Shown piece by piece: positions 11,638-38,203 of a DNA stretch of 38,358 nt. Numbering within the stretch: position 1 is the first letter of the stretch; each line of letters opens with the position of its first letter. This DNA comes from a virus (lineage: Duplodnaviria; Heunggongvirae; Uroviricota; Caudoviricetes), in the IMG/VR virus record IMGVR_UViG_3300045988_093140; one strand, given 5' to 3'. The notes under the pieces are model-generated. The model had not been told where the DNA came from. It saw nothing but the letters and a program-made list of their open reading frames with translations, and ran no database searches. Made by a program: the position numbers and the translations under genes.

Positions 11638-15318
<3,681 letters not shown>

Positions 15319-15344
<26 letters not shown>

Positions 15345-15864
15345 TCAGCAACCCCGGTATCAGTTCATCCAGCGCGGCTGCTTTGTTCATGGCTTTGATG
15401 ATATCCCGTTTCAGGAAATCAATATGCCGGTTATCCAGCTCAGGAAAACGTCGCTGCACCGACAGAGGAATACCGTCGAGAATACTGGATATTTCCCTTG
15501 CTATACGCGACAGCACGAAAGTACAGAATGCGGTTTCCACCACTTCAGCCGATTCTTTGGCATTTTTCAGTTCCTGCGCCGTCGCCTGAGCACGAGTCAG
15601 GCGATGGCGCTCAAATTCAAGTGTTCCTGGGTGAAGATCTGCCTCGCTGGCCAGCCGCAGTTCTTCAACCTCCCGGCGCAGCTTTTCGTTCTCAATTTCA
15701 GCATCCCTTTCGGCATACCATTTTATGACGGCGGCAGAGTCATAAAGCACCTCATTACCCTTGCCACCGCCTCGCAGAACGGGCATTCCCTGCTCTTGCC
15801 AGTTCTGAATGGTACGGATACTCGCACCGAAAATATCAGCCAGCTGCTTTTTGTTGACTTCCAT
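15319..15864 (-). CDS. Nu1: Terminase small subunit Nu1
   Basis: 181 aa (lambda Nu1 length), MEVNKKQLADIFGASIRTIQNWQEQGMPVLRGGGKGNEVLYDSAAVIKWY... Confidence 0.95.
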
Positions 15865-16000
15865 TGTTCATTCCACGGACAAAAACAGAGAAAGGAAACG
15901 ACAGAGGCCAAAAAGCCCGTTTTCAGCATCTGTCGTTTCCTTTCTTTTCAGGGGGTGTTTTAAATAAAAACATGAAGTTACGGCGAAGAAGAACGGAAAC

Positions 16001-16080
16001 GCCTTAAACCGGAAAATTTTCATAAATAGCGAAAACCCGCGCGCCTTCCGCCCCGTAGCCTGCCGGATCGCCGGAAAGGA
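16001..16080. other. cos site region (cosN with flanking cosB/cosQ-like sequence); nick-site bases differ from lambda
   Basis: About 190 bp upstream of Nu1; 16001-16041 equals the reverse complement of the lambda left end, 16061-16085 resembles the lambda right end, but 16042-16060 reads CGCCTTCCGCCCCGTAGCC rather than the lambda cohesive-end sequence. Confidence 0.6.
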
Positions 16081-16135
16081 CCCGCAGGCGTTCTAGTTTA
16101 TTCGCAATGAATTCAATGTCTGACAGACCTGCGTC

Positions 16136-16153
16136 GTGCGACCACGGTCGCAC
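16136..16153. repeat. sopC-like 18-bp palindrome GTGCGACCACGGTCGCAC, copy 1
   Basis: Exact inverted repeat; core GACCACGGTC shared with the F-plasmid SopB binding site as I recall it. Confidence 0.6.
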
Positions 16154-16167
16154 AGCAATGAATCAAC

Positions 16168-16236
16168 ATCCTGCATGCTCGCGCAGAGGAGTTCCCCGTC
16201 GGACTACGGTCATGGTTAATGCGGGAATACAGCGAC
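16168..16236. repeat. 68-bp direct repeat, left copy, flanking the AT-rich cassette
   Basis: ctcgcgcagaggagttccccgtcggactacggtcatggttaatgcgggaatacagcgacgatacagcgc; second copy at 17963-18032 with 5 mismatches. Confidence 0.9.
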
Positions 16237-16362
16237 GATACAGCGCATGATGTGTCAGGCTTGAATACCTTTATCCGTTAAAAGGGATATCAGTTAAGTT
16301 ATCCCGTGCAGGGTATAAGCCATTATCAAAGCCACTCAGTAGCGAATGGCTTTTGTAATGGA

Positions 16363-16812
16363 CTATTTAATTAGTGATGCTGCGTATTCGATTAGATATA
16401 ACTTAGGTGCCAGCCAAATTTTTAACCATGTCATATTGGCTACTACAGAAATAATAAAACTGAACCATAGAATAAAAACTGCTACTAATGGTAAGACAAA
16501 ACCACTTAACCTACCGTCACTTTCCCAAATCATAGTCGGTTTGTATTTAGGCTGTCCATTATCGCATGAGCGTCCTTCATTATCGAACTTACCAATTTCA
16601 ACTTTTTTGCACTGTTTCTTCATAAACCAAATAACCAGCGGAATTGTTGAAATGGCTATTAATGTTTTAATCAGGCTATCAACCATATTCCATACCAGCA
16701 ACTGATGAACAACATCCGGAATTTGAGCCTGACTGAATACAATGGCGGAATCAATTCCATCGCTGGCCTTCTTCAATAAATCAACAAGAATTTTATTTGC
16801 TTCTTCTTGCAT
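16363..16812 (-). CDS. Hypothetical small membrane protein, two predicted TM helices, in AT-rich cassette
   Basis: 149 aa ORF with ATG at 16812 and AGGA 8 nt upstream; hydrophobic stretches LIKTLIAISTIPLVIWFM and GFVLPLVAVFILWFSFIISVVA; low GC. Confidence 0.7.
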   Translation of the reverse strand: MQEEANKILVDLLKKASDGIDSAIVFSQAQIPDVVHQLLVWNMVDSLIKTLIAISTIPLVIWFMKKQCKKVEIGKFDNEGRSCDNGQPKYKPTMIWESDGRLSGFVLPLVAVFILWFSFIISVVANMTWLKIWLAPKLYLIEYAASLIK

Positions 16813-16937
16813 GTTTATATCCTGTAAGTTGTAAGTCTGTTCGAAAAAAAAACAAACAACTACGAGAGACAGAAAAAATATCTCAGGCTCTCTTTCTATA
16901 AGCTTTTAGTTGAGGATGTTCTGCAAAACAAAACTGG

Positions 16938-17798
16938 TTAGTTATGTAACTGCTTCCGGAATACAACAGCCGACGTGCTACAACGTAAAATTCGCTTGAT
17001 TGTGGCAGTTGAGGAAACAGACTTGCATTTCTCAACATCATCAATAATGACCACATCCGGTACAGGAATGACGCGGGTATGCAATGTTTTTGCACTAATA
17101 ACATCACAGCCATTCAGTGGTCGAATATCTGCATCTTCAGGCACTACCAGAAGCACACGTTTTTCCGGTGCAGAAAAGCCAGCAGCAAGAGTGCGTGACA
17201 ATAAAGTCATTCCGCTGCGTGGCTTCATACAAATTTCAGAAATATGATTCTTTTCGTCCAAATGATGCTGGACATCATTTTTATCATCATTCAACAACTC
17301 TGCTGTTAATACAATCCCTGCTGTCTCAGATTTCCAGGAAATGCTGATATCCTGATCATCTGCATCAACATCATATTTCATCGAGTAAGGACTAAAGCTA
17401 CGTCCAACGAACGCATCATTTACCAGTACACGCCCACCCTGTCTGACCTGAAAGTCAACGCGCCCTGAAAGCTGATTTGCTGTTACAAGCAATGCCTTTT
17501 TTCTTTTTGTTTTATTGCTCATTGCCACCAACTGTTCAGCCATCTCTCTTGTCACACTACCAGAAACTCTTTCTTGAATTTTCACAGAAAATTTTCTGGA
17601 TGTAGTAGCATCGACATTAAAAAATCTGGATGTCATCAGGCAGTTATTAACAATTGGCATCAGCTCACTTACGATTGTAAAAAATTCCCGGTAAAGCTCA
17701 TTTTGCTTTTCAACACACAGCTTTCCACAATCGTCCAGCTTACGCTCAAGAGCACTTAACCTTTCCATTATTGAATTAATTTTTTGCAACTCTTTCAT
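16938..17798 (-). CDS. Hypothetical cytoplasmic protein, 287 aa, N-terminal coiled coil, in AT-rich cassette
   Basis: ATG at 17798 preceded by AGGAGG (MKELQKINSIMERLSALERKLDD...); the track ORF extends further upstream only because there is no in-frame stop; no family recognised. Confidence 0.7.
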   Translation of the reverse strand: MKELQKINSIMERLSALERKLDDCGKLCVEKQNELYREFFTIVSELMPIVNNCLMTSRFFNVDATTSRKFSVKIQERVSGSVTREMAEQLVAMSNKTKRKKALLVTANQLSGRVDFQVRQGGRVLVNDAFVGRSFSPYSMKYDVDADDQDISISWKSETAGIVLTAELLNDDKNDVQHHLDEKNHISEICMKPRSGMTLLSRTLAAGFSAPEKRVLLVVPEDADIRPLNGCDVISAKTLHTRVIPVPDVVIIDDVEKCKSVSSTATIKRILRCSTSAVVFRKQLHN

Positions 17799-17821
17799 CA
17801 AAACCTCCTGACAAAGATACC

Positions 17822-17839
17822 GTGCGACCACGGTCGCAC
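17822..17839. repeat. sopC-like 18-bp palindrome, copy 2 (extends to 20 bp, 17821-17840), 22 bp upstream of the cassette start codon
   Basis: cGTGCGACCACGGTCGCACg. Confidence 0.6.
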
Positions 17840-17962
17840 GCTCCTGAATACATGCCCTGTTTCTTCCACCCTCGCACAGGACTGGCGAACATGAGGGACA
17901 AACCCGCGAATCAATAGCGCGGTAAAAACCCGGTGTGCATCGTTTTTGATTATTCCCGCACA

Positions 17963-18032
17963 CTCGCGCAGAAGGAGTTCCCCGTCGGGCTACGGTCATA
18001 GTTAATGCGGGAATACGGCGACGATGCAGCGC
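17963..18032. repeat. 68-bp direct repeat, right copy
   Basis: ctcgcgcagaaggagttccccgtcgggctacggtcatagttaatgcgggaatacggcgacgatgcagcgc. Confidence 0.9.
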
Positions 18033-18042
18033 GGAATTTAGC

Positions 18043-18060
18043 GTGCGACCACGGTCGCAC
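18043..18060. repeat. sopC-like 18-bp palindrome, copy 3
   Basis: GTGCGACCACGGTCGCAC. Confidence 0.6.
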
Positions 18061-18079: not shown

Positions 18080-18391
18080 TTATGCTACAGAGGAACAAGC
18101 TGGCGGGTAATTCAGCGTAGTGAATACCGGCATCTCCATCTTGTATGCGTAATGATACTCAGCAGTTGCTCCAGCAGACGCTTTCCAGCCAGGAAGCATC
18201 AAAATAGCATCAGCAGAACGAAGCATTGCAAAGCAAATATCCATGTATTCACGTTGCGTCAGGCCATTGGGTAAAGTGGCTGGATTCAGGACCGAATGAC
18301 CATGACGTGACAAACGCTCAGCCTCTTTATTAAAGGCGTCACGATTAAAATTCTCATATCCCGTCATTGGTCCGGCAATATAAATTTTCAT
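18080..18391 (-). CDS. Small conserved prophage protein, DUF4406 / nucleoside 2-deoxyribosyltransferase-like fold (recalled)
   Basis: 103 aa, MKIYIAGPMTGYENFNRDAF...; ATG confirmed at 18391. Confidence 0.6.
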   Translation of the reverse strand: MKIYIAGPMTGYENFNRDAFNKEAERLSRHGHSVLNPATLPNGLTQREYMDICFAMLRSADAILMLPGWKASAGATAEYHYAYKMEMPVFTTLNYPPACSSVA

Positions 18392-18432: not shown

Positions 18433-18894
18433 TTAATTCAGGCATTGCGTCCTGATGTACTCCTGCAAATATCCAACCTGTTTCGTCACTGTGACGATTC
18501 GCTCTCTGAGGATGAAATAATCCCGTTCAGCGGAGTCAGTAAGTCGGGGGCCGGTAGCATCGCCCAGGCCGCCGGTGATGGTCGTTCCGTTCGCGGGACA
18601 TCTGGCGTTGAGGTGCAGCCCACACTTGCCAGTGCGAACACAACGCTGCAAATCATCAAGCTGCTTTTTGGCATCAGCTAAGTCCTTCGTGTATTTGGCA
18701 TCCAGAGCCGCTACATCACGCTGGCGGATCTGCATGTCTTTGATGGTAGCGTTCGCCAGCTTCAACTCTCTGGCGTTTTTGTCGCGCTGCTCTTTATAGG
18801 AGATGGCGTTATCACGGTAATGATTAACAGCCAACGACAGGCAGACGATGATGCAGATAACCAGTGTGGAGATAATCGCGGTGACTCTGCTCAT
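18433..18894 (-). CDS. Rz: Spanin, inner-membrane subunit Rz
   Basis: From [49 protein letters not shown]... recognised as lambda Rz; N-terminal TM plus coiled coil. Confidence 0.9.
18486..18674 (-). CDS. Rz1: Spanin, outer-membrane lipoprotein subunit Rz1, embedded in the +1 frame of Rz (start codon uncertain)
   Basis: Lipobox ALASVGC followed by Pro-rich ...[24 protein letters not shown], resembling lambda Rz1; fully nested in Rz. Confidence 0.7.
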
Positions 18895-19391
18895 TACTGC
18901 CCCCACAAACAGACTTCACGCTCAATCTCACGGCGAGTCATCAGCCCTTTCCATTGCTTACCGCCAGCATATGTCCAGCGACGTAGTTGATCACATGCAC
19001 CTTTGATATCGCCCTGGTTGATTTTGCGAAGAAGCGTCGATGTTCTGAAATTGCCTGCACCCACGTTGTAAACGAACGAGTAAAGAGCACCACGCGTTGT
19101 TTCCGGTATATCGACTTTGATGTACGGGTTAATTTGTCTGGCGACAGTAGCAAGGTCTTTATTCAGGAGAGCTTTGCATTCAGCTTCGGTATACGTTTTA
19201 CCGAGCATAATGTCTTTTCCTGTATGCCCGTAACATACAGTCCATACACCAACGATGTCTTTGTAGGGGTTATGTTTCACACCTTCCAGACCATCGTTGC
19301 CGCTCGGACCAGAGATGAGCACAGATGCTATGGCAATAGCCCCGCCACCAATAGCAGTTGCGACAGCTTTGCGTAATGATGACTGCATCAT
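18894..19391 (-). CDS. R: SAR endolysin (lysozyme), phage 21 R-type
   Basis: 165 aa; N-terminal weakly hydrophobic Gly/Ala-rich signal-anchor-release segment [20 protein letters not shown] followed by lysozyme-like domain. Confidence 0.9.
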
Positions 19392-19660
19392 ATTTCCTTC
19401 GGTGCTCTCTTTCCCAATTCACCAATAACCATCGCCGTGGCGGAAATATTATTGGCATCAGTTTTATCCAATATGTCCTGCAATATCTTCGTGCGCTTCA
19501 TCTGCTCGCGTTTATTGAGCCGGTATGTAAGTACACCGAGGATAATGCTGAACGCGACACCGATAATGAAGCCCCAATCCTGCAATGACAGGCTGGCAAA
19601 GAACGCAGTAAGACCAGCACTACCATAAGGTGCGCTGCTGTATCGTTCATCCATCTTCAT
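19388..19660 (-). CDS. S: Holin (pinholin-like) with dual-start motif M-K-M
   Basis: 90 aa, two hydrophobic segments, charged C-terminus, overlaps the R start by 4 nt; ATG at 19660 and second ATG two codons in. Confidence 0.8.
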
Positions 19661-21076: not shown

Positions 21077-21094
21077 TGTGCGACCGTGGTCGCA
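21077..21094. repeat. sopC-like 18-bp palindrome, copy 4 (opposite centre orientation, extends to 22 bp), T-runs on both sides
   Basis: ctGTGCGACCGTGGTCGCACag. Confidence 0.6.
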
Positions 21095-21100
21095 CAGTTT

Positions 21101-21728: not shown

Positions 21729-22040
21729 ATGTTTAACGTGATAACCCACCCTGCAGCACTGGATGAACTGCTTGAACTACCAGATGATTTGCGAGGTCGC
21801 ATGACCAGATTAATTGAGCGACTGGAGAAAGAAGGCAACAAACTGAAGATGCCTCATAGCCGTGTAATAGGTGGAGGGCTTTTTGAACTACGAGTAGGGG
21901 ATAAAAACATCGCAAGAACGCTGTACGCCTACGCGACTGGTAACGAAATTTATCTATTGCATGCATTTGTAAAAAAGACACAGAAAACACCGGTGAAGGC
22001 TATCGAAATCGCCAGAACTCGCCTGAAGGAGATGAACTGA
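21729..22040 (+). CDS. Type II toxin, RelE/ParE superfamily (HigB-like / Gp49-like), toxin-first operon
   Basis: 103 aa; 4-nt ATGA overlap with the downstream HTH gene; upstream palindrome TCACTTTTTAGTGA. Confidence 0.7.
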   Translation: MFNVITHPAALDELLELPDDLRGRMTRLIERLEKEGNKLKMPHSRVIGGGLFELRVGDKNIARTLYAYATGNEIYLLHAFVKKTQKTPVKAIEIARTRLKEMN

Positions 22041-22327
22041 TGAAAGCGAAAGGCATCCCGTTTAACGAAGTAAAAGAAAAACTCCTCAACACTCCAGAAG
22101 CCGTCAAAGGATATGAAGAGGCCGACAAAGAGCTGGAGATGGTCGAAATGTTATACGAAATGAGGGAAAGAGCAGGTTTAACGAAATCAGCTCTGGCTGA
22201 ACGAATGGGGTTGCGCCCGTCAGCCATCAGCCGCCTGGAAAGCAATCCTTTAGGGGCAAGTATGAAAACTTTGGCTAAATATGCTCATGCCTGCGGCGCA
22301 ACCATCGATATTCGCGCTGTTTATTAA
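22040..22327 (+). CDS. HTH XRE-family antitoxin (HigA-like)
   Basis: 95 aa with HTH segment LTKSALAERMGLRPSAISRLE. Confidence 0.7.
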   Translation: MKAKGIPFNEVKEKLLNTPEAVKGYEEADKELEMVEMLYEMRERAGLTKSALAERMGLRPSAISRLESNPLGASMKTLAKYAHACGATIDIRAVY

Positions 22328-26122: not shown

Positions 26123-26423
26123 TTTCTTGTGCGACCACGGTCGCACCCTCTCTGATTTCCAAGTAACGCTTAATCCAAAGATTTTCTATATGCTTATTAC
26201 CTGGCTGATTTGATAAATACCAATCGGCAATTACAGACTGCTTATTACTATCTGGTCGTGTCCTGTAACCACAAGTTGGACACCAGATAACATATTCATT
26301 TCTTACCCCCGAATACCTTAATTCTGGCTTCGACGGTTTCCTGAACATAACTTGTTTACAAAGGCAGAATGGCACTTCCTGCCCGATGGCGTTTGATGAT
26401 TTCACTGCGCTTCTCCGCCGCAT
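26103..26423 (-). CDS. Zinc-finger protein, possibly Lar-family restriction-alleviation-like (start uncertain)
   Basis: CLC...CPTCG cysteine pairs; family assignment from memory only. Confidence 0.4.
   Translation of the reverse strand: MRRRSAVKSSNAIGQEVPFCLCKQVMFRKPSKPELRYSGVRNEYVIWCPTCGYRTRPDSNKQSVIADWYLSNQPGNKHIENLWIKRYLEIREGATVVAQENENNAI
26129..26146. repeat. sopC-like 18-bp palindrome, copy 5, inside the 3' end of the zinc-finger ORF
   Basis: GTGCGACCACGGTCGCAC; encodes ATVVAQ in the ORF frame. Confidence 0.6.
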
Positions 26424-28210: not shown

Positions 28211-31200
28211 ATGACATTAAACGATTTCTATGCGGATCGCTTTGGCAGCGATCCGTTCTCGCTAATTGAAGCAGCACGGGATGAACTAACCGAGCTGGCA
28301 CAGATGGCTGGTATCAACTGGCCTGCCTGTTCCGACAACATCCAACTCAACCCTCGCGGGGGGGTTGAGCGTTACTCTTCATACAATAAAACATCTCCAG
28401 AAGCTCTCGAAAAGAGCCTGAAAGGACGCGTAGAAATTTACTCCAGGCTGGAACACAGCAAAGGGATTGATTACCCGTTCATTAACTTCGTCCATAAAGG
28501 CAGCGATGCTGGCTCATGGAGCGGTTTCTCCTTCCTGTTTTCTGAATATCGCCGTGAGCAACAACGGAATAATGCGACCGTGGTCGCACAACCGGAAGAA
28601 GAACGGGAAAGAATAGAACGTCAGGCCGAAGCACGTCGTCGCCGTGAAGAACAAAAACGAATTAATGACCTGAAAAACAACCAAATGGACCATGAACGTT
28701 TGCTGGGATGGCTGGCATTCCACAGCGCGTGGGAACATGCTCAGGCTGAAGACGGCTCATGGCCATATGCGATTAAAAAAGGTATTCGTGACGTTTTTAG
28801 TTCATGTGATGTGCGTCGCGTGACCAGTCACGACAGTGCGAAATGGAGCCGGGGGCCAACCACATATATGGCTATCCCTCTGGCTCACCTGGACGGTCGT
28901 TATGATGGTCGTATTGTGGGTTGGCAGCGAATCGACAAACAAGGTGGGAAATACCAGACCAGCGCAGTAACCAGCGGCGATTTCGTCGGTGCCTGCTTTG
29001 TTATCGGTGAGCTGAAAGGGGCGCAAAACATCGCTGTTACAGAAGGTTTTGCTACTGGTGCATCCATCTGGCTTGCCACGAAAAAAGATAAACGCTTTGA
29101 CGCTGTGGTTGTCGCTGTATCCGCTAACAACATGGTTCATGTTGTGGAACAACTGGTAAACATGTACCCGGCGGCAAAAATCACCTGCGCACTGGATAAT
29201 GACCGGAAATCTGCCACAGAAGGAAAAGGGAATACCGGCCTGCGGACTGGCTATGAAATCTTATCTAAATTCAACGATGTCCGCTGCGTCTACCCAACTT
29301 TTGAAGACGATCCGCAAATGGAGTGCAGTGACTTCAACGACCTGCACAAACTACGTGGACTTCGTGAAACAGCACGTCAACTATTCGCAACAGCAAACCG
29401 CCTGAAAACCGGTACTGATTTGCTATCTCTGACACTCAACCGCCTGAAGACAATTAAGCGGGATAACCGCCGTACTTTTGCCAAAGAGCTGCTGAGAGCG
29501 GTAGATATTGGCATGCTGACCTGTCCGGTTCCTAACAGCCCGTCAGATTTATTTAACATGTTCTGTATCGTTCTGCGTGAAATGGGGCTGGAAAATATCT
29601 ATCGCGCTACGGTAAAAGACCATATTGCCCGTCGCCTGAATAAAAAGTGCCGTATTGCCCAGGCTCCGCGCTCTTTCAGCGAACGCATAACTGATCCCAA
29701 TAAACGCCCTCAACATATCACCTATAAGCGTTTTGATACTTCGGTAATGACCGATGACGTCCTGAAGTACGTGCAATCACTACAGGGGATAGTCATCGTC
29801 CGTGCTGGTATGGGTTCCGGCAAATCTACTGGATTGTTACGACCGTTAATGCATAGCTCAGAACGTGGTATCTCTGTAGCTCACCGTGTTTCCCTTATTG
29901 GTGGTCTGTGGGAAATGATGACTGAAGGAAAAGGTGTAAAAGCCGATATCCTGCACTATCAGGACCCTGGCTATCAGGAAATGGCCCCATACGCCAGTAA
30001 ACTGACCATCTGCATAAACTCGATTGTTAAAAACTGCTGGCAACCGTTGATGCGCCAGCACGACTATTTTGGCTTTGACGAGGCAACACAAGGGCTACGT
30101 GCCGTTCTTTCCGGTCGGGCTATGGAAAACCCGGTGGCTGTATTCAATACGCTAATTGATGCGCTGGCCAGAACGGAACAACACCCAATCATGGTGGATG
30201 CTGATGCGAACGATCTGCTGGTTGACCTGGCTGAACTGGCTATGAAACGCCGCGAAGAACTCGGTTTACCCGCATGGCTGCAGATCCACGTAATTGAATT
30301 ACCTGTTGATGTTCGCAACCGCGAAACAGGTGAGCCAATCCGGGTTTTTTATACAGAAAAAGATCGCATTATGACCGAGGTGGTGAAAGCTGTATCGGAT
30401 GGCGAAAAAATTATGTTGGCCACCGACAGCTCCACCTTTGCAGAAGATGTGACCGCCACCCTGAGAATGCATTTTCCTGGTAAGAAATTTCTGTGTGTAA
30501 ACCAGAAAAACAAACCAGAGCCAGAAGTTGAAGCATTTACCAATCAACCGAAAAAGATGGTCAAAAAATACGACGGCCTGATTTATAGCCCGTCTATTTC
30601 ATCCGGCGTGTCGATTGAGCAAAAACATTTTGACCGTCATTTCGGCATGTTCTGTGGTGAAGTTGTACCCAGCGACGCAGTGCAAATGCTACGCCGCGAC
30701 CGTACAGCAAAAGAATTTATTATCGGCTTTGATAAAGCTCGCGCAAAACGTGAAACTGACCCGCAAAAAATAGAACGAGCATTCGCCCAGGCATTGCTTG
30801 CTACCGCAGGCATGAACGGTGAACTGACGGATGTCGTTTTCGATGGCGACCGTATATCAATGGGGGTGGCCAATACCGACTTTACCAGGATGAAAATTAA
30901 AGCAGCCGCAATTGAAGCGTCTGCGCGTAACGACTACGCCAGCAACATGATCTGCATCATGCACAGCGACGGTTATAAGGTATCGCCGCTGGCCACCGAT
31001 TATGCTGCGAATGATATCGGTAAAGATCTGCGTAAAGAAGCGCGGGATATTGTGTGGGAACAGACACTGGATCTGCATCTCAATACAGAAACTCCACAAG
31101 AATCAGAGCGTGAAGAACTGCTAAAAAAACGCGCGCTGACGCTTGAAGAACAGGCAAAACTTGTCCGCTGGGATATTGAGAACGAACTGAAACTACCGGT

Positions 31201-32206
31201 TGAAGAAGGCACGCTGAAATTCTATTTCGATGGTGCTCGAGACAAAGTTCGCCGCTATGAAACAATGCTTTTAGATGAGGTAACAGCTCGTCGTTACGAC
31301 CGGGAAGAAGCAGCCATCAATTTTACCTACGCATACCGTCAGGCGGGACAGTGGCAATATTTTGTAGTGACCGCGATGACTCGCGAGCAGGCTGATGATG
31401 TCTTTAAAACTAAATTCCCTGGAATAATCGACTACAAGGTAAAAGCTACTCCTACTGTTGAAGTCGGGGCGCGCGGTTTCTATGCGCTTAAATCAGCAAC
31501 TCTCCGGCAGTACTTTATCGACTGCGGTATCAACCCTGAGACTATGACCGGCGAGGCGACTCAGGAGCGTCTCAAATTCGCTCGAGATAACCTCATGACA
31601 GCCGAACGCCGTGACCTGTTGAATAACGTTCTGCACATTGGTGGTTTTATGACGCCAAAAGGGAAGCCTAAAGTGCCGGAAGCGTTGTTTAAAAACATTT
31701 GCGACTCTCTTGGCCTTAAAACAGGTAAACGTCGTGGCAGAGACGGCGATAAGCGTCCAACCTTGCGTTTTGTTGAGCCTGAATCAGCGGCATTTATGCT
31801 GGATATTCTTGCTCAGCGTCAGAAAGATGGCCTAACCCTGAAAACGCGCAAAGCCGAGAAGACCGCCATCGAAATGGATCGCGATTTGGATCTCAATATA
31901 TATATGGATGATAAAACGCGATCCACAAATGAGCAGGTTCAAAACGCCCCTCATTCAGTAATTTCTGAGGCTTTGGCAGTGTTGCCGGTGGCTGTACCTG
32001 AGTCCTGGGCTATGAGTGCGCTTTCCTGTGAGGAGCTGGCCACTATGTCATCATGGTCATCAGCCAGCATAGCTATGACGTTTGCATCTCTGTACCTAAC
32101 AGAGTTCATGGATCACTTGTCCAGTAATGAACTGCGGCGGTTACGTGAATATATTACCGGGAATAGCCCATGCAGCTACGAAGAGCAGGGCGCTTTCTAT
32201 GGGTAA
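28211..32206 (+). CDS. repA: Multifunctional replication protein, primase (Toprim) plus P-loop helicase; N15 RepA-like
   Basis: 1331 aa; Toprim motifs VTEGFATGASIW and CALDNDRKS; Walker A GMGSGKST and Walker B FGFDEAT. Confidence 0.8.
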   Translation: MTLNDFYADRFGSDPFSLIEAARDELTELAQMAGINWPACSDNIQLNPRGGVERYSSYNKTSPEALEKSLKGRVEIYSRLEHSKGIDYPFINFVHKGSDAGSWSGFSFLFSEYRREQQRNNATVVAQPEEERERIERQAEARRRREEQKRINDLKNNQMDHERLLGWLAFHSAWEHAQAEDGSWPYAIKKGIRDVFSSCDVRRVTSHDSAKWSRGPTTYMAIPLAHLDGRYDGRIVGWQRIDKQGGKYQTSAVTSGDFVGACFVIGELKGAQNIAVTEGFATGASIWLATKKDKRFDAVVVAVSANNMVHVVEQLVNMYPAAKITCALDNDRKSATEGKGNTGLRTGYEILSKFNDVRCVYPTFEDDPQMECSDFNDLHKLRGLRETARQLFATANRLKTGTDLLSLTLNRLKTIKRDNRRTFAKELLRAVDIGMLTCPVPNSPSDLFNMFCIVLREMGLENIYRATVKDHIARRLNKKCRIAQAPRSFSERITDPNKRPQHITYKRFDTSVMTDDVLKYVQSLQGIVIVRAGMGSGKSTGLLRPLMHSSERGISVAHRVSLIGGLWEMMTEGKGVKADILHYQDPGYQEMAPYASKLTICINSIVKNCWQPLMRQHDYFGFDEATQGLRAVLSGRAMENPVAVFNTLIDALARTEQHPIMVDADANDLLVDLAELAMKRREELGLPAWLQIHVIELPVDVRNRETGEPIRVFYTEKDRIMTEVVKAVSDGEKIMLATDSSTFAEDVTATLRMHFPGKKFLCVNQKNKPEPEVEAFTNQPKKMVKKYDGLIYSPSISSGVSIEQKHFDRHFGMFCGEVVPSDAVQMLRRDRTAKEFIIGFDKARAKRETDPQKIERAFAQALLATAGMNGELTDVVFDGDRISMGVANTDFTRMKIKAAAIEASARNDYASNMICIMHSDGYKVSPLATDYAANDIGKDLRKEARDIVWEQTLDLHLNTETPQESEREELLKKRALTLEEQAKLVRWDIENELKLPVEEGTLKFYFDGARDKVRRYETMLLDEVTARRYDREEAAINFTYAYRQAGQWQYFVVTAMTREQADDVFKTKFPGIIDYKVKATPTVEVGARGFYALKSATLRQYFIDCGINPETMTGEATQERLKFARDNLMTAERRDLLNNVLHIGGFMTPKGKPKVPEALFKNICDSLGLKTGKRRGRDGDKRPTLRFVEPESAAFMLDILAQRQKDGLTLKTRKAEKTAIEMDRDLDLNIYMDDKTRSTNEQVQNAPHSVISEALAVLPVAVPESWAMSALSCEELATMSSWSSASIAMTFASLYLTEFMDHLSSNELRRLREYITGNSPCSYEEQGAFYG
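28572..28589. repeat. sopC-like palindrome, copy 6 (one outer mismatch), inside repA coding sequence
   Basis: aTGCGACCGTGGTCGCAC; encodes ATVVAQ in RepA. Confidence 0.55.
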
Positions 32207-33476: not shown

Positions 33477-33498
33477 TACATCGGTATAAAGACTGCAT

Positions 33499-34419: not shown

Positions 34420-34554
34420 CAAAATCAGGATAGCCCGAGCCGCCCCATTAGTAAAGTAAAGTGTAAATAACATTTATATTTTAATGTAATAAAAATGCTA
34501 CGTTTTGTTGTATATTATTCTAATGGTAGTTCAGGCGGGGCCGACTTCGGTCGG

Positions 34555-34606
34555 GCCGGTTTCTCCGTTTACCGGTATTGCGAACCCTGCCTGGGCTATC
34601 ACCATA
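34555..34606 (+). repeat. c4-like repeat, copy 1, upstream of icd/ant (candidate antisense-RNA or target element)
   Basis: gccggtttctccgtttaccggtattgcgaaccctgcctgggctatcaccata, preceded by hairpin CCGAC-TTCG-GTCGG. Confidence 0.35.
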
Positions 34607-34867
34607 ATATCGTTTATCTTCTAATCATTTGTTTAAGCAAACTATAAAAACACCTATCCCCGTGACTGGTCACAGGGTAAAATGTCTTTGCAAATTATTG
34701 ACGTGTGCGTCGTTTTGACGGTAAAGTTATTCCGCTGCGGTAAATCCCGTAGCCGGGCGTAGGAACCCGAGTAAATGAAGCGCACAACACGCGCCAGCGT
34801 GTTTTTTTGTGTGTAAAATCTGCGTACACCAAATTTATGGTGGCTCAGATGGGGCAGCTTTTAGCTG

Positions 34868-34920
34868 GCCGGTTTCTTCGTTTACCGGTATTCCTACCCC
34901 CGTCTGGGCTACCGCCATAT
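34868..34920 (+). repeat. c4-like repeat, copy 2
   Basis: gccggtttcttcgtttaccggtattcctacccccgtctgggctaccgccatat; 5' 25 nt identical to copy 1 except one base. Confidence 0.35.
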
Positions 34921-36307: not shown

Positions 36308-38203
36308 TTATCCGAAATATGTCAGCCATGCTAACTGCATTGCTGACATAGGGCTGTTTGCACTGCCGGACCACGCATAATTCTGGCCATTATAATGAAA
36401 CTCAACAACGTATGAGCCATCACCAATATTTCTCACAGGCTTAAATACCGGCTTAGATACAGGTGAAGAAGGCGCTGGCGGTTGCTGTTCTTCTACGCTC
36501 TCTTCCTCTTCCTCTTCCTCTATCTCAATTTCGTCGTCATCCAGATCGTCATCCTCTGATAATTCATCCGTCTGTTCAGGTATTGCTTCCAGCTCTTCTT
36601 CGTCAGGCATAACGATTTCTGGAGTATCTATTTTCAGCTGCCATTGTCCATTTTCGCCAACAAATTGCCCCAGAGCATCAGCAGCAAATTCCAGGTATCG
36701 ACTAATCATTGTTGGGCTAAATTTGAATGCTCTTAGAGTGCTGTTCGTGATTTTTATAGAGGGGTCCTGTTCTACCAGCTGCTTAACTGTGTTATGCAGA
36801 CGAACCCCGGCATCTCCTCTGGCGAATCCAGGCATTTCGTCATCAAGCTGCTGCAATGCTTCCAGCCTGGTATTTTCGTTTCCAGTATTTGGCCTCCATG
36901 TCTTTGAGAAGTTGGCCAGCTTGAATTGTTTATAGTGTAATTGAGTGTTTTCATCGTCATGGCCTAAAATTTCCATAAAGAAAACATCTTCATCTACATT
37001 TTTCCAACGGGGATCTACGCGGAAAAACATTTCATACGCAATACGGGCATAAATAGCACGACTATCTTTATAAACACGGCGATTGTCATTGAAAAATGAT
37101 TTAACCCATGGATTAAAAGCCTTTGCTAATATGGCATTAATACGTCCGTTTTCAGACCGCGTGTCGTTATTTCCGTAACCCATAACGACTTCATCAAAAT
37201 CAGATGCTGCTGGGCATGAGCGAAGTACATTTATTAGATAAACAAACGTTTTTGCTTCGCATAATGTATATATTTTTCTGGTTACATCATCAGTAGTTCT
37301 TTTTTTCGCCTGACCTAAAAAATCAACGGTATACTTACCAGAGACAGTAAATGTACCTTGATACATAATCTCAATCATTCGTCTTCCTGATAATGCGGCA
37401 AGAGCAAATGCCAAAGGAGCCATACCTGAACGAGTGTTTAGATTATTTAATGTAGCAGGGCTATTTATAATATCGTAAATAGCTTGCATATAATTAGGGT
37501 AGTCAATGACTACTACGTTACGTTTCTTATTGTGTAGTACGTCCGCCCATCGTTGCTGGATAGATGCGCGTTCGGCAGGGCTTAGTTTGAGATGATAGAG
37601 AATCTCATGGTTAACCTTTAACTGATTCAACTCCTCAAGCAAGGCTGACCCTTGCTGTAGTAATTTATATAAATAATCGCGCTTATCTTTCCAATTATCG
37701 CCAGTTAAATCAGAAATGGCAAATTGCCATTCTTTATATTTATTTGATAACTTTATTAACTTATTATTATTTTTATTATCACCAATTCTGATATTAGATA
37801 AATCTTCGGACAGATGAATAATTAATTTTAATTTTGCCTGTAAAGATGACATTCTACGGCGAATATCGGCAGCAGGTAGAGAGAGCCATGACAATAGCTC
37901 CTCATTATATAAAGGATATTTTTCAGATAGTCGATGTATATTTTTTTCAAAACTATGATGAAGTTTATCATCAAACCGTTTTCTGGCCCTGCTCATATAG
38001 GAGTTGAATGTGTTGGCTGTAATTCTCTTTTCTAATCCTTTTCCCCTAAACTTTCGCTTATCATTAAATAATGTATTTTTAAATTTTAATGCAACGGCCT
38101 TTATTTTTTTTGTTTTCTCTCCTTGAGGACGGTCAGAGTTATCTATTGACTCAACATCGCTAACAAGTGAGTTTATTAATTCACCGATTTTTACTTTGCT
38201 CAT
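36308..38203 (-). CDS. telN: Protelomerase (telomere resolvase), N15 TelN-like
   Basis: 631 aa, recognised as TelN end to end (MSKVKIGELIN...RKFRGKGLEKRITANTFN...RVYKDSRAIYARIAYEMFF..., acidic C-terminal linker); AGGAGA RBS. Confidence 0.9.
   Translation of the reverse strand: MSKVKIGELINSLVSDVESIDNSDRPQGEKTKKIKAVALKFKNTLFNDKRKFRGKGLEKRITANTFNSYMSRARKRFDDKLHHSFEKNIHRLSEKYPLYNEELLSWLSLPAADIRRRMSSLQAKLKLIIHLSEDLSNIRIGDNKNNNKLIKLSNKYKEWQFAISDLTGDNWKDKRDYLYKLLQQGSALLEELNQLKVNHEILYHLKLSPAERASIQQRWADVLHNKKRNVVVIDYPNYMQAIYDIINSPATLNNLNTRSGMAPLAFALAALSGRRMIEIMYQGTFTVSGKYTVDFLGQAKKRTTDDVTRKIYTLCEAKTFVYLINVLRSCPAASDFDEVVMGYGNNDTRSENGRINAILAKAFNPWVKSFFNDNRRVYKDSRAIYARIAYEMFFRVDPRWKNVDEDVFFMEILGHDDENTQLHYKQFKLANFSKTWRPNTGNENTRLEALQQLDDEMPGFARGDAGVRLHNTVKQLVEQDPSIKITNSTLRAFKFSPTMISRYLEFAADALGQFVGENGQWQLKIDTPEIVMPDEEELEAIPEQTDELSEDDDLDDDEIEIEEEEEEESVEEQQPPAPSSPVSKPVFKPVRNIGDGSYVVEFHYNGQNYAWSGSANSPMSAMQLAWLTYFG

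What the first reader, a model, noticed from the sequence alone, without database searches (positions are those of the whole stretch)
16136..18060. 68-bp direct repeats plus palindromes delimit the cassette, suggesting acquisition by homologous single crossover
A 68-bp sequence occurs at 16168-16236 and 17963-18032 with 5 mismatches, exactly at the GC transition on both sides. Each copy is paired with a sopC-like palindrome (16136-16153 and 18043-18060), and a third palindrome (17821-17840) lies inside the insert. This pattern fits Campbell-type integration of a circular element carrying one repeat copy, or a recombination hotspot for moron exchange. The repeat contains an AGGAG and a short stem (TTCCCCG/GCGGGAA) and might itself encode a small RNA or regulatory site.
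Basis: seen in the sequence. Interest (0 to 1): 0.55.

Follow-up and report, generated by a model that had tools for sequence, protein, structure and literature searches.

The report
Duplicated phage junction element flanking a cassette
A two-gene accessory cassette in an N15-like linear phage-plasmid sits between two copies of a non-coding element that most E. coli lambda-type prophages carry once, next to known plasmid-partition sites; relatives show the copies recombine to delete the cassette, which is ordinary phage mosaicism with one unannotated, possibly RNA-forming, element in it.

Summary
The repeats lie at 16169-16246 and 17954-18032 (79 bp, 90% identical). Three perfect GTGCGACCACGGTCGCAC palindromes lie at 16136, 17822 and 18043. 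The window is an N15-like linear phage-plasmid with late genes on the minus strand.

The palindromes are N15-type SopB centromere sites, identical to the IR1/IR4 core. Six occur in the window, four of them at N15's positions.

The repeat ("REP") is part of a ~300-bp non-coding block found once between the lysis and packaging genes of lambdoid prophages, in 4578 of 5426 complete E. coli genomes. It is unannotated and matches no Rfam family. In this lineage the block is duplicated around two accessory genes (149 aa and 286 aa, function unknown). Relatives carry longer repeats of 172-212 bp. The window's left copy is a truncated remnant.

An "empty site" exists (pZ1323HEC0355-3). Its single REP is a left-copy/right-copy chimera, and its flank is identical to cassette-bearing relatives, so it is a secondary deletion by repeat-by-repeat recombination, not a pre-insertion site. 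Other relatives hold cassette fragments or REP chimeras.

Recombination at the repeats is supported. Campbell-type acquisition is not. REP's helices are better conserved on the late-mRNA strand, suggesting a structured RNA.

The parts
16017..16084 (.). cos region (cohesive-end site), lambda-like, between Nu1 (15319-15864, minus) and the accessory-gene interval
   Evidence: Marker strings shared with lambda and the relatives. Window 15900-16084 is 91% identical to lambda.
16136..16153 (.). PAL1: N15-type SopB centromere palindrome GTGCGACCACGGTCGCAC. This copy is extra relative to N15.
   Evidence: Exact match. Identical to the N15 IR1/IR4 core. cos-PAL-y-REP is also present in L070, L118, L053, L190 and L192.
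16169..16246 (-). REP copy A, truncated. It holds positions 35-113 of the 113-nt element and lacks the plus-strand left arms of both helices, so it cannot form the hairpin.
   Evidence: BLAST and nhmmer. Alignment with the full-length copy A of pAH01-1 shows about 100 nt missing.
16247..16362 (-). 'z': conserved non-coding segment that follows REP in generic lambdoid prophages. It holds long late-sense hairpins, one of them GGGAUA..UAUCCC followed by UUUU.
   Evidence: Contiguous with y-REP in L118, L117, L050, L005, L189 and L191. Fold z-score of the whole block is -4.25.
16363..16812 (-). 149-aa predicted membrane protein (phrog_3054), first cassette gene, function unknown
   Evidence: ORF list; PHROG hit at 1e-56. 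490 homologues across Enterobacteriaceae, elsewhere placed after N next to sieB or rexAB.
16938..17798 (-). 286-aa protein (phrog_2571), second cassette gene, function unknown, Escherichia only
   Evidence: PHROG hit at 2e-163; 15 clusters only; no Pfam or PADLOC hit. AF2 model has pLDDT 63 and only weak fold matches.
17822..17839 (.). PAL2: SopB centromere palindrome, 23 nt upstream of the 286-aa gene's ATG. It marks the right edge of the low-GC block.
   Evidence: The 22-nt match CGTGCGACCACGGTCGCACGCT equals N15 IR4. Flagged as terminator-like on the minus strand.
17840..17919 (-). 'y' spacer of the repeat unit. It includes a small late-sense hairpin, CCGCG (17904-17908) paired with CGCGG (17918-17922, running 3 nt into REP copy B), followed by UUUGU.
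   Evidence: Conserved with REP in relatives. The hairpin covaries: CUGUG/CGCAG, and CCGUG/CGCGG wobble.
17920..18032 (-). REP copy B, full length. Helices are P1 17936-17943/18021-18028 and P2 17951-17960/18006-18015.
   Evidence: RNAalifold consensus and pair counts. Fold z-score -2.65 on the late strand.
18043..18060 (.). PAL3: SopB centromere palindrome, 19 nt downstream of the DUF4406 gene's stop codon
   Evidence: Present in the same place in L001, L002 and L124-L128.
18080..18391 (-). DUF4406 / nucleoside 2-deoxyribosyltransferase-like gene. It is the right-hand neighbour of the duplicated unit, just downstream of Rz (18433-18906).
   Evidence: Pfam PF14359 at 7e-34. N15 gene 57 is also a DUF4406 gene.
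21078..21095 (.). SopB centromere palindrome upstream of the DNA methylase gene, syntenic with N15 IR3
26129..26146 (.). SopB centromere palindrome downstream of the Q-like gene, syntenic with N15 IR2
28572..28589 (.). SopB centromere palindrome (1 mismatch) about 360 nt inside the repA-like ORF, syntenic with N15 IR1

Best explanation
The locus lies in the Rz-to-cos accessory-gene slot of an N15-like linear phage-plasmid.

**The repeat.** The '68-bp repeat' is the surviving overlap of two copies of a conserved non-coding lambdoid junction module: centromere palindrome, then an 80-nt spacer 'y', then the 113-nt REP. Lambdoid phages normally carry this module once, between the lysis/accessory genes and the packaging genes.

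**The arrangement here.** The two copies bracket two unrelated accessory genes of unknown function (149 aa and 286 aa). The right copy is intact. The left copy is a truncated remnant.

**The palindromes.** They are N15-type SopB-binding centromere sites. They belong to the plasmid's dispersed partition system and travel with the module.

**What is shown.** Ordinary homologous recombination acts on the two copies.
- Recombination between the copies deletes the cassette precisely and leaves one chimeric copy.
- Recombination between REP copies of different phages swaps whatever lies on either side.

**What is inferred.**
- The duplication arose by unequal or illegitimate joining of two phage right ends. 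One had the order Rz-DUF4406-PAL-REP-y-PAL-cos. The other carried the cassette upstream of z-REP-y-cos. The short palindrome may have served as the homology.
- REP is kept because, on the late transcript, it forms a long two-helix hairpin followed by a small GC hairpin and a U-tract. This would act as a terminator/insulator or a processing site between the accessory genes and the packaging genes.
For: **Identity of the replicon**
- The best phage hit is YDC107_1, classified in Ravinvirus.
- The relative pAH01-1 has a protelomerase, sopA and a ParB that is 73% identical to N15 SopB.

**Palindromes**
- N15 has exactly four GTGCGACCNNGGTCGCAC sites. They equal the published IR1-IR4 oligonucleotides (PMC7205306, Table 4).
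- Four of the six window sites are syntenic with the N15 sites.

**REP is a general lambdoid element**
- 432 phage records carry it, and 430 of them carry it once.
- 4578 of 5426 E. coli genomes carry it, at 11,723 places, all unannotated in the rows listed.
- y-REP-z is contiguous in generic prophages.
- It lies just upstream of unrelated terminase genes in 933W-like phages.

**Repeat unit and deletions**
- The repeat unit is 172-212 bp in relatives.
- The window's copy A is truncated.
- Deletion series: the ORFs of L001/L127/L128 and of L126 are N-terminal fragments of the 286-aa gene, and the L125 ORF matches it only weakly (3.6e-06). The L001 deletion joins at the microhomology GCTGCGT.

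**Recombination at REP**
- The single REP of L124 is a chimera of the left and right copies. Its flank is identical to L001/L127/L128.
- L193 is the reciprocal type of chimera, and L099 is a hybrid of two REP types.
- The same block sits in an integrated lambda-like prophage (L192).

**RNA structure**
- 97.8% of cells pair in late sense, against 88.3% in plus sense.
- Two pairs show compensatory changes.
- Among non-Watson-Crick states, 7 are G.U in late sense and 1 is G.U in plus sense.
- The fold z-score of the whole block is -4.25.
Against: - How the duplication arose is not resolved. No genome was found with the 286-aa gene and a single, intact, clearly ancestral junction.
- REP diversity is low: 51 distinct sequences, mostly from Escherichia. 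The pair-count tool itself warns that related sequences can beat every shuffle without any structure.
- Lambda's P1 helix has a fixed A.G mismatch (11 of 51 sequences).
- No expression, processing or termination data were available.
- REP's conservation could simply reflect recent spread by recombination.
- SopB binding at the extra palindromes is inferred from sequence identity only. The sopAB genes lie outside the window.
- The same palindromes occur in a chromosomal lambda-like prophage, where partition is irrelevant.
Confidence: 0.7

Rival explanations
1. Campbell-type acquisition. A circular DNA carrying one REP plus the cassette integrated by a single homologous crossover into the resident REP of an 'empty' plasmid, creating the two flanking copies.
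For: - An empty site exists, and its single REP is exactly left-copy-left-half plus right-copy-right-half, as this model predicts (L124).
- The reciprocal junction, PAL-y-REP-z, is what the circle would carry. It is the common lambdoid arrangement and also occurs in L193.
- REP-by-REP deletion must release such a circle.
Against: - L124 is identical over a 1.34-kb flank to plasmids that carry the cassette. The more distant window lineage, 145 differences away, also has the full cassette at the same place. The cassette therefore predates L124.
- The cassette region has no replication or recombination gene.
- The cassette is a composite of a widely distributed gene and a rare gene.
- Thousands of resident REP copies exist in E. 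coli. In every locus mapped here, the 286-aa gene sits in one and the same arrangement or a deletion remnant of it. Only 28 of 5426 genomes hold at least 80% of the block.
- z-REP with the 149-aa gene beside it is a native single-copy arrangement in L191.
Confidence: 0.15
2. Site-specific cassette exchange. REP (an imperfect hairpin) or the palindrome acts as a recombination site for a dedicated recombinase, as attC does in integrons, which would explain why the mosaic junction recurs at the same nucleotide.
For: - The right edge of REP (window 18032/16246) is followed within 0-3 nt by at least six unrelated sequences in different phages: z, the bor region, PAL3 and others.
- REP is a long imperfect hairpin.
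Against: - The relative pAH01-1 has no annotated integrase apart from the protelomerase.
- Left boundaries vary: window positions 17821, 17850-17861, 17926 and 17945.
- The crossovers in L124 and L099 fall at different places inside stretches of identity, as homologous recombination predicts.
- The internal deletion in L001 uses 7-bp microhomology elsewhere.
Confidence: 0.05
3. REP has no function of its own as RNA. It is either a DNA-level protein-binding or promoter-region element for plus-strand accessory genes such as bor, or simply a neutral 'linker' kept similar by frequent recombination among co-resident prophages.
For: - In lambda, REP lies about 115 bp upstream of bor and downstream of the ybcV-like ORF, both on the plus strand.
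- It folds on both strands.
- Sequence diversity is low, and hybrid copies show frequent exchange.
Against: - REP's orientation relative to the late operon is constant, while the neighbouring plus-strand genes are absent in most contexts.
- One-sided changes preserve pairing on the late strand in 7 cases against 1.
- Compensatory pairs are present.
- The promoter scan found nothing above the shuffled expectation.
Confidence: 0.25

Closest known systems
N15 dispersed centromere sites IR1-IR4 (SopB-binding, related to F plasmid sopC)
   Same: - The 18-bp palindrome is identical to the IR1/IR4 core.
- Four window copies are syntenic with IR1-IR4: inside repA, after Q, upstream of the late-region methylase, and in the Rz-cos interval.
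- A close relative encodes SopA and a SopB 73% identical to N15's.
   Different: - The window has six sites rather than four, three of them clustered within 1.9 kb of the Rz-cos interval as part of a duplicated module.
- The same sites are also carried by an integrated lambda-like prophage (L192).
- Binding was not tested.
Lambdoid 'morons' such as lambda bor (Juhala et al. 2000, as cited in PMC4104026; the rest from my own knowledge)
   Same: - Extra low-GC genes sit between genes that are adjacent in a relative.
- They occupy the same Rz-cos slot that holds bor in lambda and 933W.
- A terminator-like hairpin lies downstream.
   Different: - No convincing promoter of their own was found.
- The genes are on the late strand, whereas bor is on the opposite strand.
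- They are flanked by a duplicated junction element, which is exceptional: 2 of 432 phage records.
Mosaic-boundary or 'linker' sequences, and relaxed homologous recombination between lambdoid phages and prophages (Martinsohn et al. 2008, PMC2327257; De Paepe et al. 2014, cited in PMC10879196; phage 434B with its Q-lysis region replaced from DLP12, PMC9119081)
   Same: - A short conserved non-coding segment is shared by otherwise unrelated neighbours.
- Hybrid copies of it exist.
- Module swaps have endpoints in it.
   Different: - Here one specific ~113-nt element is defined.
- Its prevalence was measured: 84% of complete E. coli genomes.
- It shows signs of a conserved RNA fold.
- I found no description of it in the searchable literature or in Rfam.
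RNase III processing hairpins and read-through terminators in long phage operons (T7 inter-genic sites, lambda sib). This is a resemblance from my own knowledge, not a test.
   Same: Two roughly 8-11-bp helices separated by an internal loop, placed between functional gene blocks of one long antiterminated transcript.
   Different: No cleavage or termination data exist, and there is no sequence similarity. This is only a working analogy for what REP might do.

Membership tests
N15-type SopB centromere site (IR / sopC-like parS) | Perfect palindrome GTGCGACC-NN-GGTCGCAC matching IR1-IR4 | tested here: met
   Five exact copies and one with 1 mismatch in the window. N15 itself has four. The published IR oligonucleotides match.
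N15-type SopB centromere site (IR / sopC-like parS) | Several copies dispersed over the replicon at the positions seen in N15 | tested here: met
   Window 28572 (in repA), 26129 (after Q), 21078 (upstream of the methylase) and the Rz-cos interval correspond to N15 IR1, IR2, IR3 and IR4.
N15-type SopB centromere site (IR / sopC-like parS) | Cognate sopA/sopB on the same replicon | tested here: inconclusive
   The window ends 155 bp beyond the telN-like ORF, so sopAB would lie outside it. The 98%-identical relative pAH01-1 has sopA and a ParB 73% identical to N15 SopB.
N15-type SopB centromere site (IR / sopC-like parS) | SopB binding and partition activity | not testable with these tools
   Needs ChIP or EMSA and plasmid-stability assays.
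Moron (independent accessory transcription unit in a lambdoid late region) | Extra DNA between genes that are adjacent in a related phage | tested here: met
   L124 has cos-REP-PAL-DUF4406 with no cassette, although this is a secondary deletion.
Moron (independent accessory transcription unit in a lambdoid late region) | Composition different from the surrounding genome | tested here: met
   GC is 0.36-0.37 across 16300-17800, against 0.50-0.55 in the flanks.
Moron (independent accessory transcription unit in a lambdoid late region) | Own promoter and terminator | tested here: inconclusive
   Promoter-like hits are no more frequent than in shuffles (5 found, 5.2 expected) and none lies upstream of the 286-aa gene. 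Terminator-like hairpins lie downstream in z.
Campbell-type (homologous single-crossover) insertion of a circular element | Direct repeats flanking the insert, and an empty site with one hybrid copy | tested here: met
Campbell-type (homologous single-crossover) insertion of a circular element | The empty site is ancestral to the occupied site | tested here: not met
   Over a 1.34-kb flank, L124 has 0 differences from the cassette-bearing L001/L127/L128 and 4 from L002. The window, 145 differences away, also carries the full cassette.
Campbell-type (homologous single-crossover) insertion of a circular element | Existence of the circular form | not testable with these tools
   Needs outward-facing PCR or long-read data from a culture.
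Integron-like or site-specific gene cassette | Dedicated integrase or recombinase nearby, and a fixed crossover point | tested here: not met
   pAH01-1 has no annotated integrase apart from the protelomerase. Crossover points and left boundaries vary.
Any described RNA family (Rfam 15) | Covariance-model match to REP on either strand | tested here: not met
   No hit at gathering thresholds and none overlapping REP at E up to 5. The only window hits are C4 and isrK at 34.5-34.9 kb.

The most novel reading that the evidence does not exclude
REP, together with its flanking hairpins (the ~300-nt y-REP-z block), is an undescribed structured cis-acting RNA of the lambdoid late transcript. It marks the border between the lysis/accessory genes and the packaging genes in most E. 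coli prophages, including lambda and the Stx phages. It would work as a Q-overridable insulator/terminator or as an RNase III-type processing site. Its sequence conservation, as a by-product, makes it the preferred crossover point for exchanging accessory genes and whole head modules between phages, prophages and phage-plasmids.
Probability: 0.35. Interest if true: 0.55.

Novelty: new member of a known kind. Interest (0 to 1): 0.35.

Why it matters
- **Gene flow.** This is a documented case of how accessory genes in phage-plasmids are lost, and how whole modules are swapped with integrated prophages, through one short conserved non-coding element. It bears on gene flow between plasmids and phages.
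- **Centromere sites.** It shows plasmid partition sites multiplying and then hitch-hiking into chromosomal prophages.
- **An unannotated element.** It points to a very common element, present in about 84% of complete E. coli genomes and in phage lambda itself, whose fold appears conserved on the late-mRNA strand. It can be tested directly in lambda.
- **Limits.** None of this overturns current views. The recombination mechanism is the expected one.

Tried and rejected
- **Rfam.** Scans at gathering and at permissive thresholds gave nothing on REP.
- **Cassette proteins.** Pfam and PADLOC gave no hit; PHROGs gave only families of unknown function.
- **Structure of the 286-aa protein.** The AF2 model has pLDDT 63. 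The Foldseek search of PDB gave only weak beta-sandwich/esterase-like matches with TM about 0.2, so no function is assigned. The afdb50 library was unavailable.
- **N15 gp59.** It is not a homologue of the 286-aa protein.
- **Short ORFs in REP.** Reading the sequence by eye, I found short ORFs of 10-27 codons. They are broken by the copy A/copy B indel and by ATG/ATA differences, so I rejected coding.
- **AGGAG as a ribosome-binding site.** Rejected. It is on the strand opposite the late genes, 22 nt from a 12-codon ORF that is absent in copy B.
- **GTDB pattern scan for REP outside Escherichia.** It returned mainly lambda DNA contamination, so it added no diversity.
- **Literature.** Searches for a described sRNA or terminator at this position (AgvB/AsxR, Pas sRNAs, LT-II prophages, RNase III) found no match. 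The Ravin and Lane N15 partition papers are not held, so the IR sequences were taken from PMC7205306.
- **An earlier inference, withdrawn.** I first inferred that the cassette is confined to N15-like plasmids. The whole-genome census then showed it also occurs in chromosomal prophages.
- **Further REP copies.** An nhmmer search found none in the window and none in N15.
Full report
**Context**

The window is an N15-like linear phage-plasmid read in reverse.
- A lambda-type terminase (13419-15344 and 15319-15864), cos (about 16017-16084), Rz, R and S (18433-19660) and a DNA methylase all lie on the minus strand.
- A RepA-sized ORF (28211-32206) and a protelomerase-sized ORF (36308-38203) follow.
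- The best phage match is YDC107_1, classified in Ravinvirus.
- The relative pAH01-1 is 98% identical over the locus. It encodes a protelomerase, SopA and a ParB 73% identical to N15 SopB.
- The finding lies in the Rz-to-cos interval, where lambda carries bor.

**Observation**

The repeat is real.
- Copy A is 16169-16246 and copy B is 17954-18032: 79 bp at 89.9% identity.
The copy A coordinates are 10 nt too low.
- GTGCGACCACGGTCGCAC is exact at 16136, 17822 and 18043. It also occurs at 21078, 26129 and 28572 (the last with 1 mismatch). Shuffles predict 0.03 matches.
- The low-GC block (0.36) runs from about 16300 to 17800. Its right edge is palindrome 2, not copy B.

**The palindromes**

- N15 itself has exactly four GTGCGACCNNGGTCGCAC sites, at 33481, 35932, 41126 and 45563.
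- These are the IR1-IR4 SopB-binding centromere sites, whose oligonucleotide sequences are printed in PMC7205306, Table 4.
- Four window sites are syntenic with them: inside repA, after Q, upstream of the late methylase, and in the Rz-cos interval.
These are known elements, and this lineage has two more than N15. N15 has no REP.

**The repeat is a general lambdoid element**

- The full right copy is 113 nt (17920-18032).
- It matches 432 phage records, including lambda (between the ybcV-like ORF and bor) and 933W. It is single-copy in 430 of them.
- It occurs in 4578 of 5426 complete E. coli genomes at 11,723 places, with no annotated feature in any of the 30 sampled rows but one, which lists only hypothetical proteins.
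- In generic prophages it is the centre of a contiguous block of about 300 bp, y-REP-z. This block equals window 17850-18032 joined directly to 16247-16373, and it lies between the last lysis or accessory gene and the packaging genes.
- In 933W-like phages, whose terminases are unrelated, it lies about 185 nt upstream of the small terminase gene in late sense.
- Its orientation relative to the late operon is constant.
- It matches no Rfam family. I found no description of it in the searchable literature.

**Anatomy in relatives**

- The true repeat unit is longer than 68 bp. It is 172 bp in YDC107_1 and PhiR46_1 and in some plasmids. It is 212 bp, including the palindrome, in L070, L192 and pAH01-1.
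- The window's copy A has lost about 100 nt between palindrome 1 and REP position 35. It lacks one arm of each helix.
- Read in the late direction, the order is: Rz, DUF4406, PAL3, REP-B, y, PAL2, 286-aa gene, 149-aa gene, z, REP-A, PAL1, cos.

**Comparative series and polarity**

- The 'different cassettes' in relatives are remnants of the same one.
  - The 198-aa ORF of L001/L127/L128 is the first two thirds of the 286-aa gene.
  - The 104-aa ORF of L126 is its first third.
  - L125 keeps a remnant whose match to the same family is weak (3.6e-06).
  - The 830-bp deletion in L001 joins at the microhomology GCTGCGT.
- L124 (pZ1323HEC0355-3) is the predicted empty site, cos-REP-PAL3-DUF4406.
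  - The left part of its REP carries the diagnostic bases of copy A and the right part those of copy B. The switch falls inside about 55 identical bases.
  - This pattern fits both insertion and deletion, so flanks were compared.
  - Over 1.34 kb of DUF4406-Rz-R, L124 has 0 differences from L001/L127/L128, 1 from L126 and 4 from L002. The window, which also has the full cassette at the same place, differs at 145 positions.
  - The cassette is therefore older than L124, and L124 is a deletion by recombination between the two REP copies.
- L193, a chromosomal prophage, has the reciprocal type of chimera: a fragment of the 286-aa gene, then PAL2, y, REP and z, continuing into generic lambdoid lysis genes.
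- L099 is a hybrid of the N15-like and lambda REP sequence types.
- L058 has the cassette next to a terminase only 46-66% identical.
- The whole two-copy block is in 28 of 5426 complete genomes. It occurs on ~46-kb plasmids and in chromosomes, for example in a true lambda-like prophage with Q, Nin and RusA genes.
- REP is thus a working crossover point. The block moves between phage-plasmids and integrated prophages, carrying the centromere palindromes with it.

**Cassette content**

- Neither protein has a Pfam or PADLOC match.
- The 149-aa predicted membrane protein belongs to a broad enterobacterial family of 490 clusters. In lambdoid and P22-like prophages this family sits just after N, beside sieB or rexAB. 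That neighbourhood suggests, but does not show, an exclusion or defence role.
- In L191 the 149-aa gene sits alone next to z in a single-copy arrangement.
- The 286-aa protein is confined to Escherichia, with 15 clusters. Its model has low confidence and gives no informative fold match.
- The two genes have separate histories.

**Is REP more than a linker?**

- The full element folds into a long hairpin: P1 of 7-8 bp, an internal loop, and P2 of 10-11 bp. The fold z-score is -2.65 on the late strand and -1.74 on the other.
- Across 51 distinct sequences, 97.8% of helix cells pair in late sense, and 0 of 500 shuffles reach that value.
- Two pairs show compensatory changes: C-G/G-C/U-A, and C-G/U-A.
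- In plus sense only 88.3% of cells pair.
- Among the non-Watson-Crick states, 7 are G.U in late sense, 1 is G.U in plus sense, and 5 are mismatches either way.
- A small downstream hairpin with a U-tract also covaries, for example CCGCG/CGCGG against CUGUG/CGCAG.
- The 306-nt block of an O157 prophage folds with a z-score of -4.25 in late sense.
- This is suggestive rather than conclusive. Diversity is low, and the sequences are related by descent and by recombination.

**Mechanism and rivals**

- Shown: the identity of the palindromes; that the element is generally single-copy; the duplication in this lineage; cassette decay; and recombination at REP.
- Inferred: that the extra palindromes bind SopB; that the duplication arose by unequal joining of two right ends; and that REP acts as an insulator or processing hairpin on the late transcript.
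- Campbell-type acquisition remains possible in principle, because deletion releases the required circle. The polarity test and the composite cassette contradict it. In every locus mapped here the 286-aa gene also sits in one arrangement, despite thousands of potential REP targets.
- A site-specific mechanism is unlikely because there is no recombinase and the crossover points vary.

**Verdict**

This is a real and well-defined structure, built from known kinds of parts and working by ordinary homologous recombination. The part most worth following up is REP itself, a very common, unannotated element of lambdoid phages that is probably structured.

Noticed in passing
window 34519-34919 (+): Two C4 antisense RNA matches (77.5 and 73.6 bits) flank an isrK match (61.8 bits). 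This is probably the P1/N15-type anti-immunity (antirepressor control) locus of this phage-plasmid.
   Followed up: no
loci L130-L162 (GTDB genome-contig scan): Exact REP matches in Pseudomonas, Cohnella, Flavobacterium, Pedobacter, Kitasatospora and others lie on ~48.4-kb low-coverage contigs or on ~3.5-kb contigs. They carry lambda ybcV/bor genes. They look like phage lambda DNA, or the 3.6-kb lambda sequencing control, contaminating public assemblies.
   Followed up: partly
L192 4047 and 5831 (E. coli CUVM3 chromosome, NZ_CP116970): N15-type SopB centromere palindromes sit inside an integrated lambda-like prophage with Q, NinE/F/H, RusA and the lambda holin. Plasmid partition sites have been carried into a chromosome, where they have no obvious role.
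   Followed up: partly
L182-L188: Homologues (about 70% identical) of the 149-aa cassette protein occupy a fixed slot just after the N antiterminator gene, beside sieB or rexAB, in lambdoid and P22-like prophages of E. coli and Salmonella. The same gene family therefore occurs in two different accessory-gene hotspots.
   Followed up: partly
window 16104-16177: The 23 nt before palindrome 1 (GCAATGAATTCAATGTCTGACAG) resemble the 23 nt after it (GCAATGAATCAACATCCTGCATG). This could be a diverged direct duplication around the palindrome, a by-product of the ~100-nt deletion in copy A, or chance.
   Followed up: no
L053 (IMG/VR contig, 7991 bp): Two cos sites and two REP elements of different sequence types lie within 8 kb (Nu1-cos-PAL-REP-Rz-cos-...-REP-Rz). 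This suggests tandem or nested prophage remnants, or a misassembly.
   Followed up: no
E. coli plasmids of 123-204 kb (H167-H170): Partial REP copies (positions 15-109, 88% identical) occur on large non-phage plasmids. From my own knowledge these may flank iss, the plasmid-borne bor homologue. I did not check.
   Followed up: no
window 21729-22327 (+): Two adjacent ORFs of 103 and 95 aa stand where pAH01-1 and N15 annotate a RelE/ParE toxin and its HTH partner. This is probably a toxin-antitoxin stability module of the plasmid.
   Followed up: no
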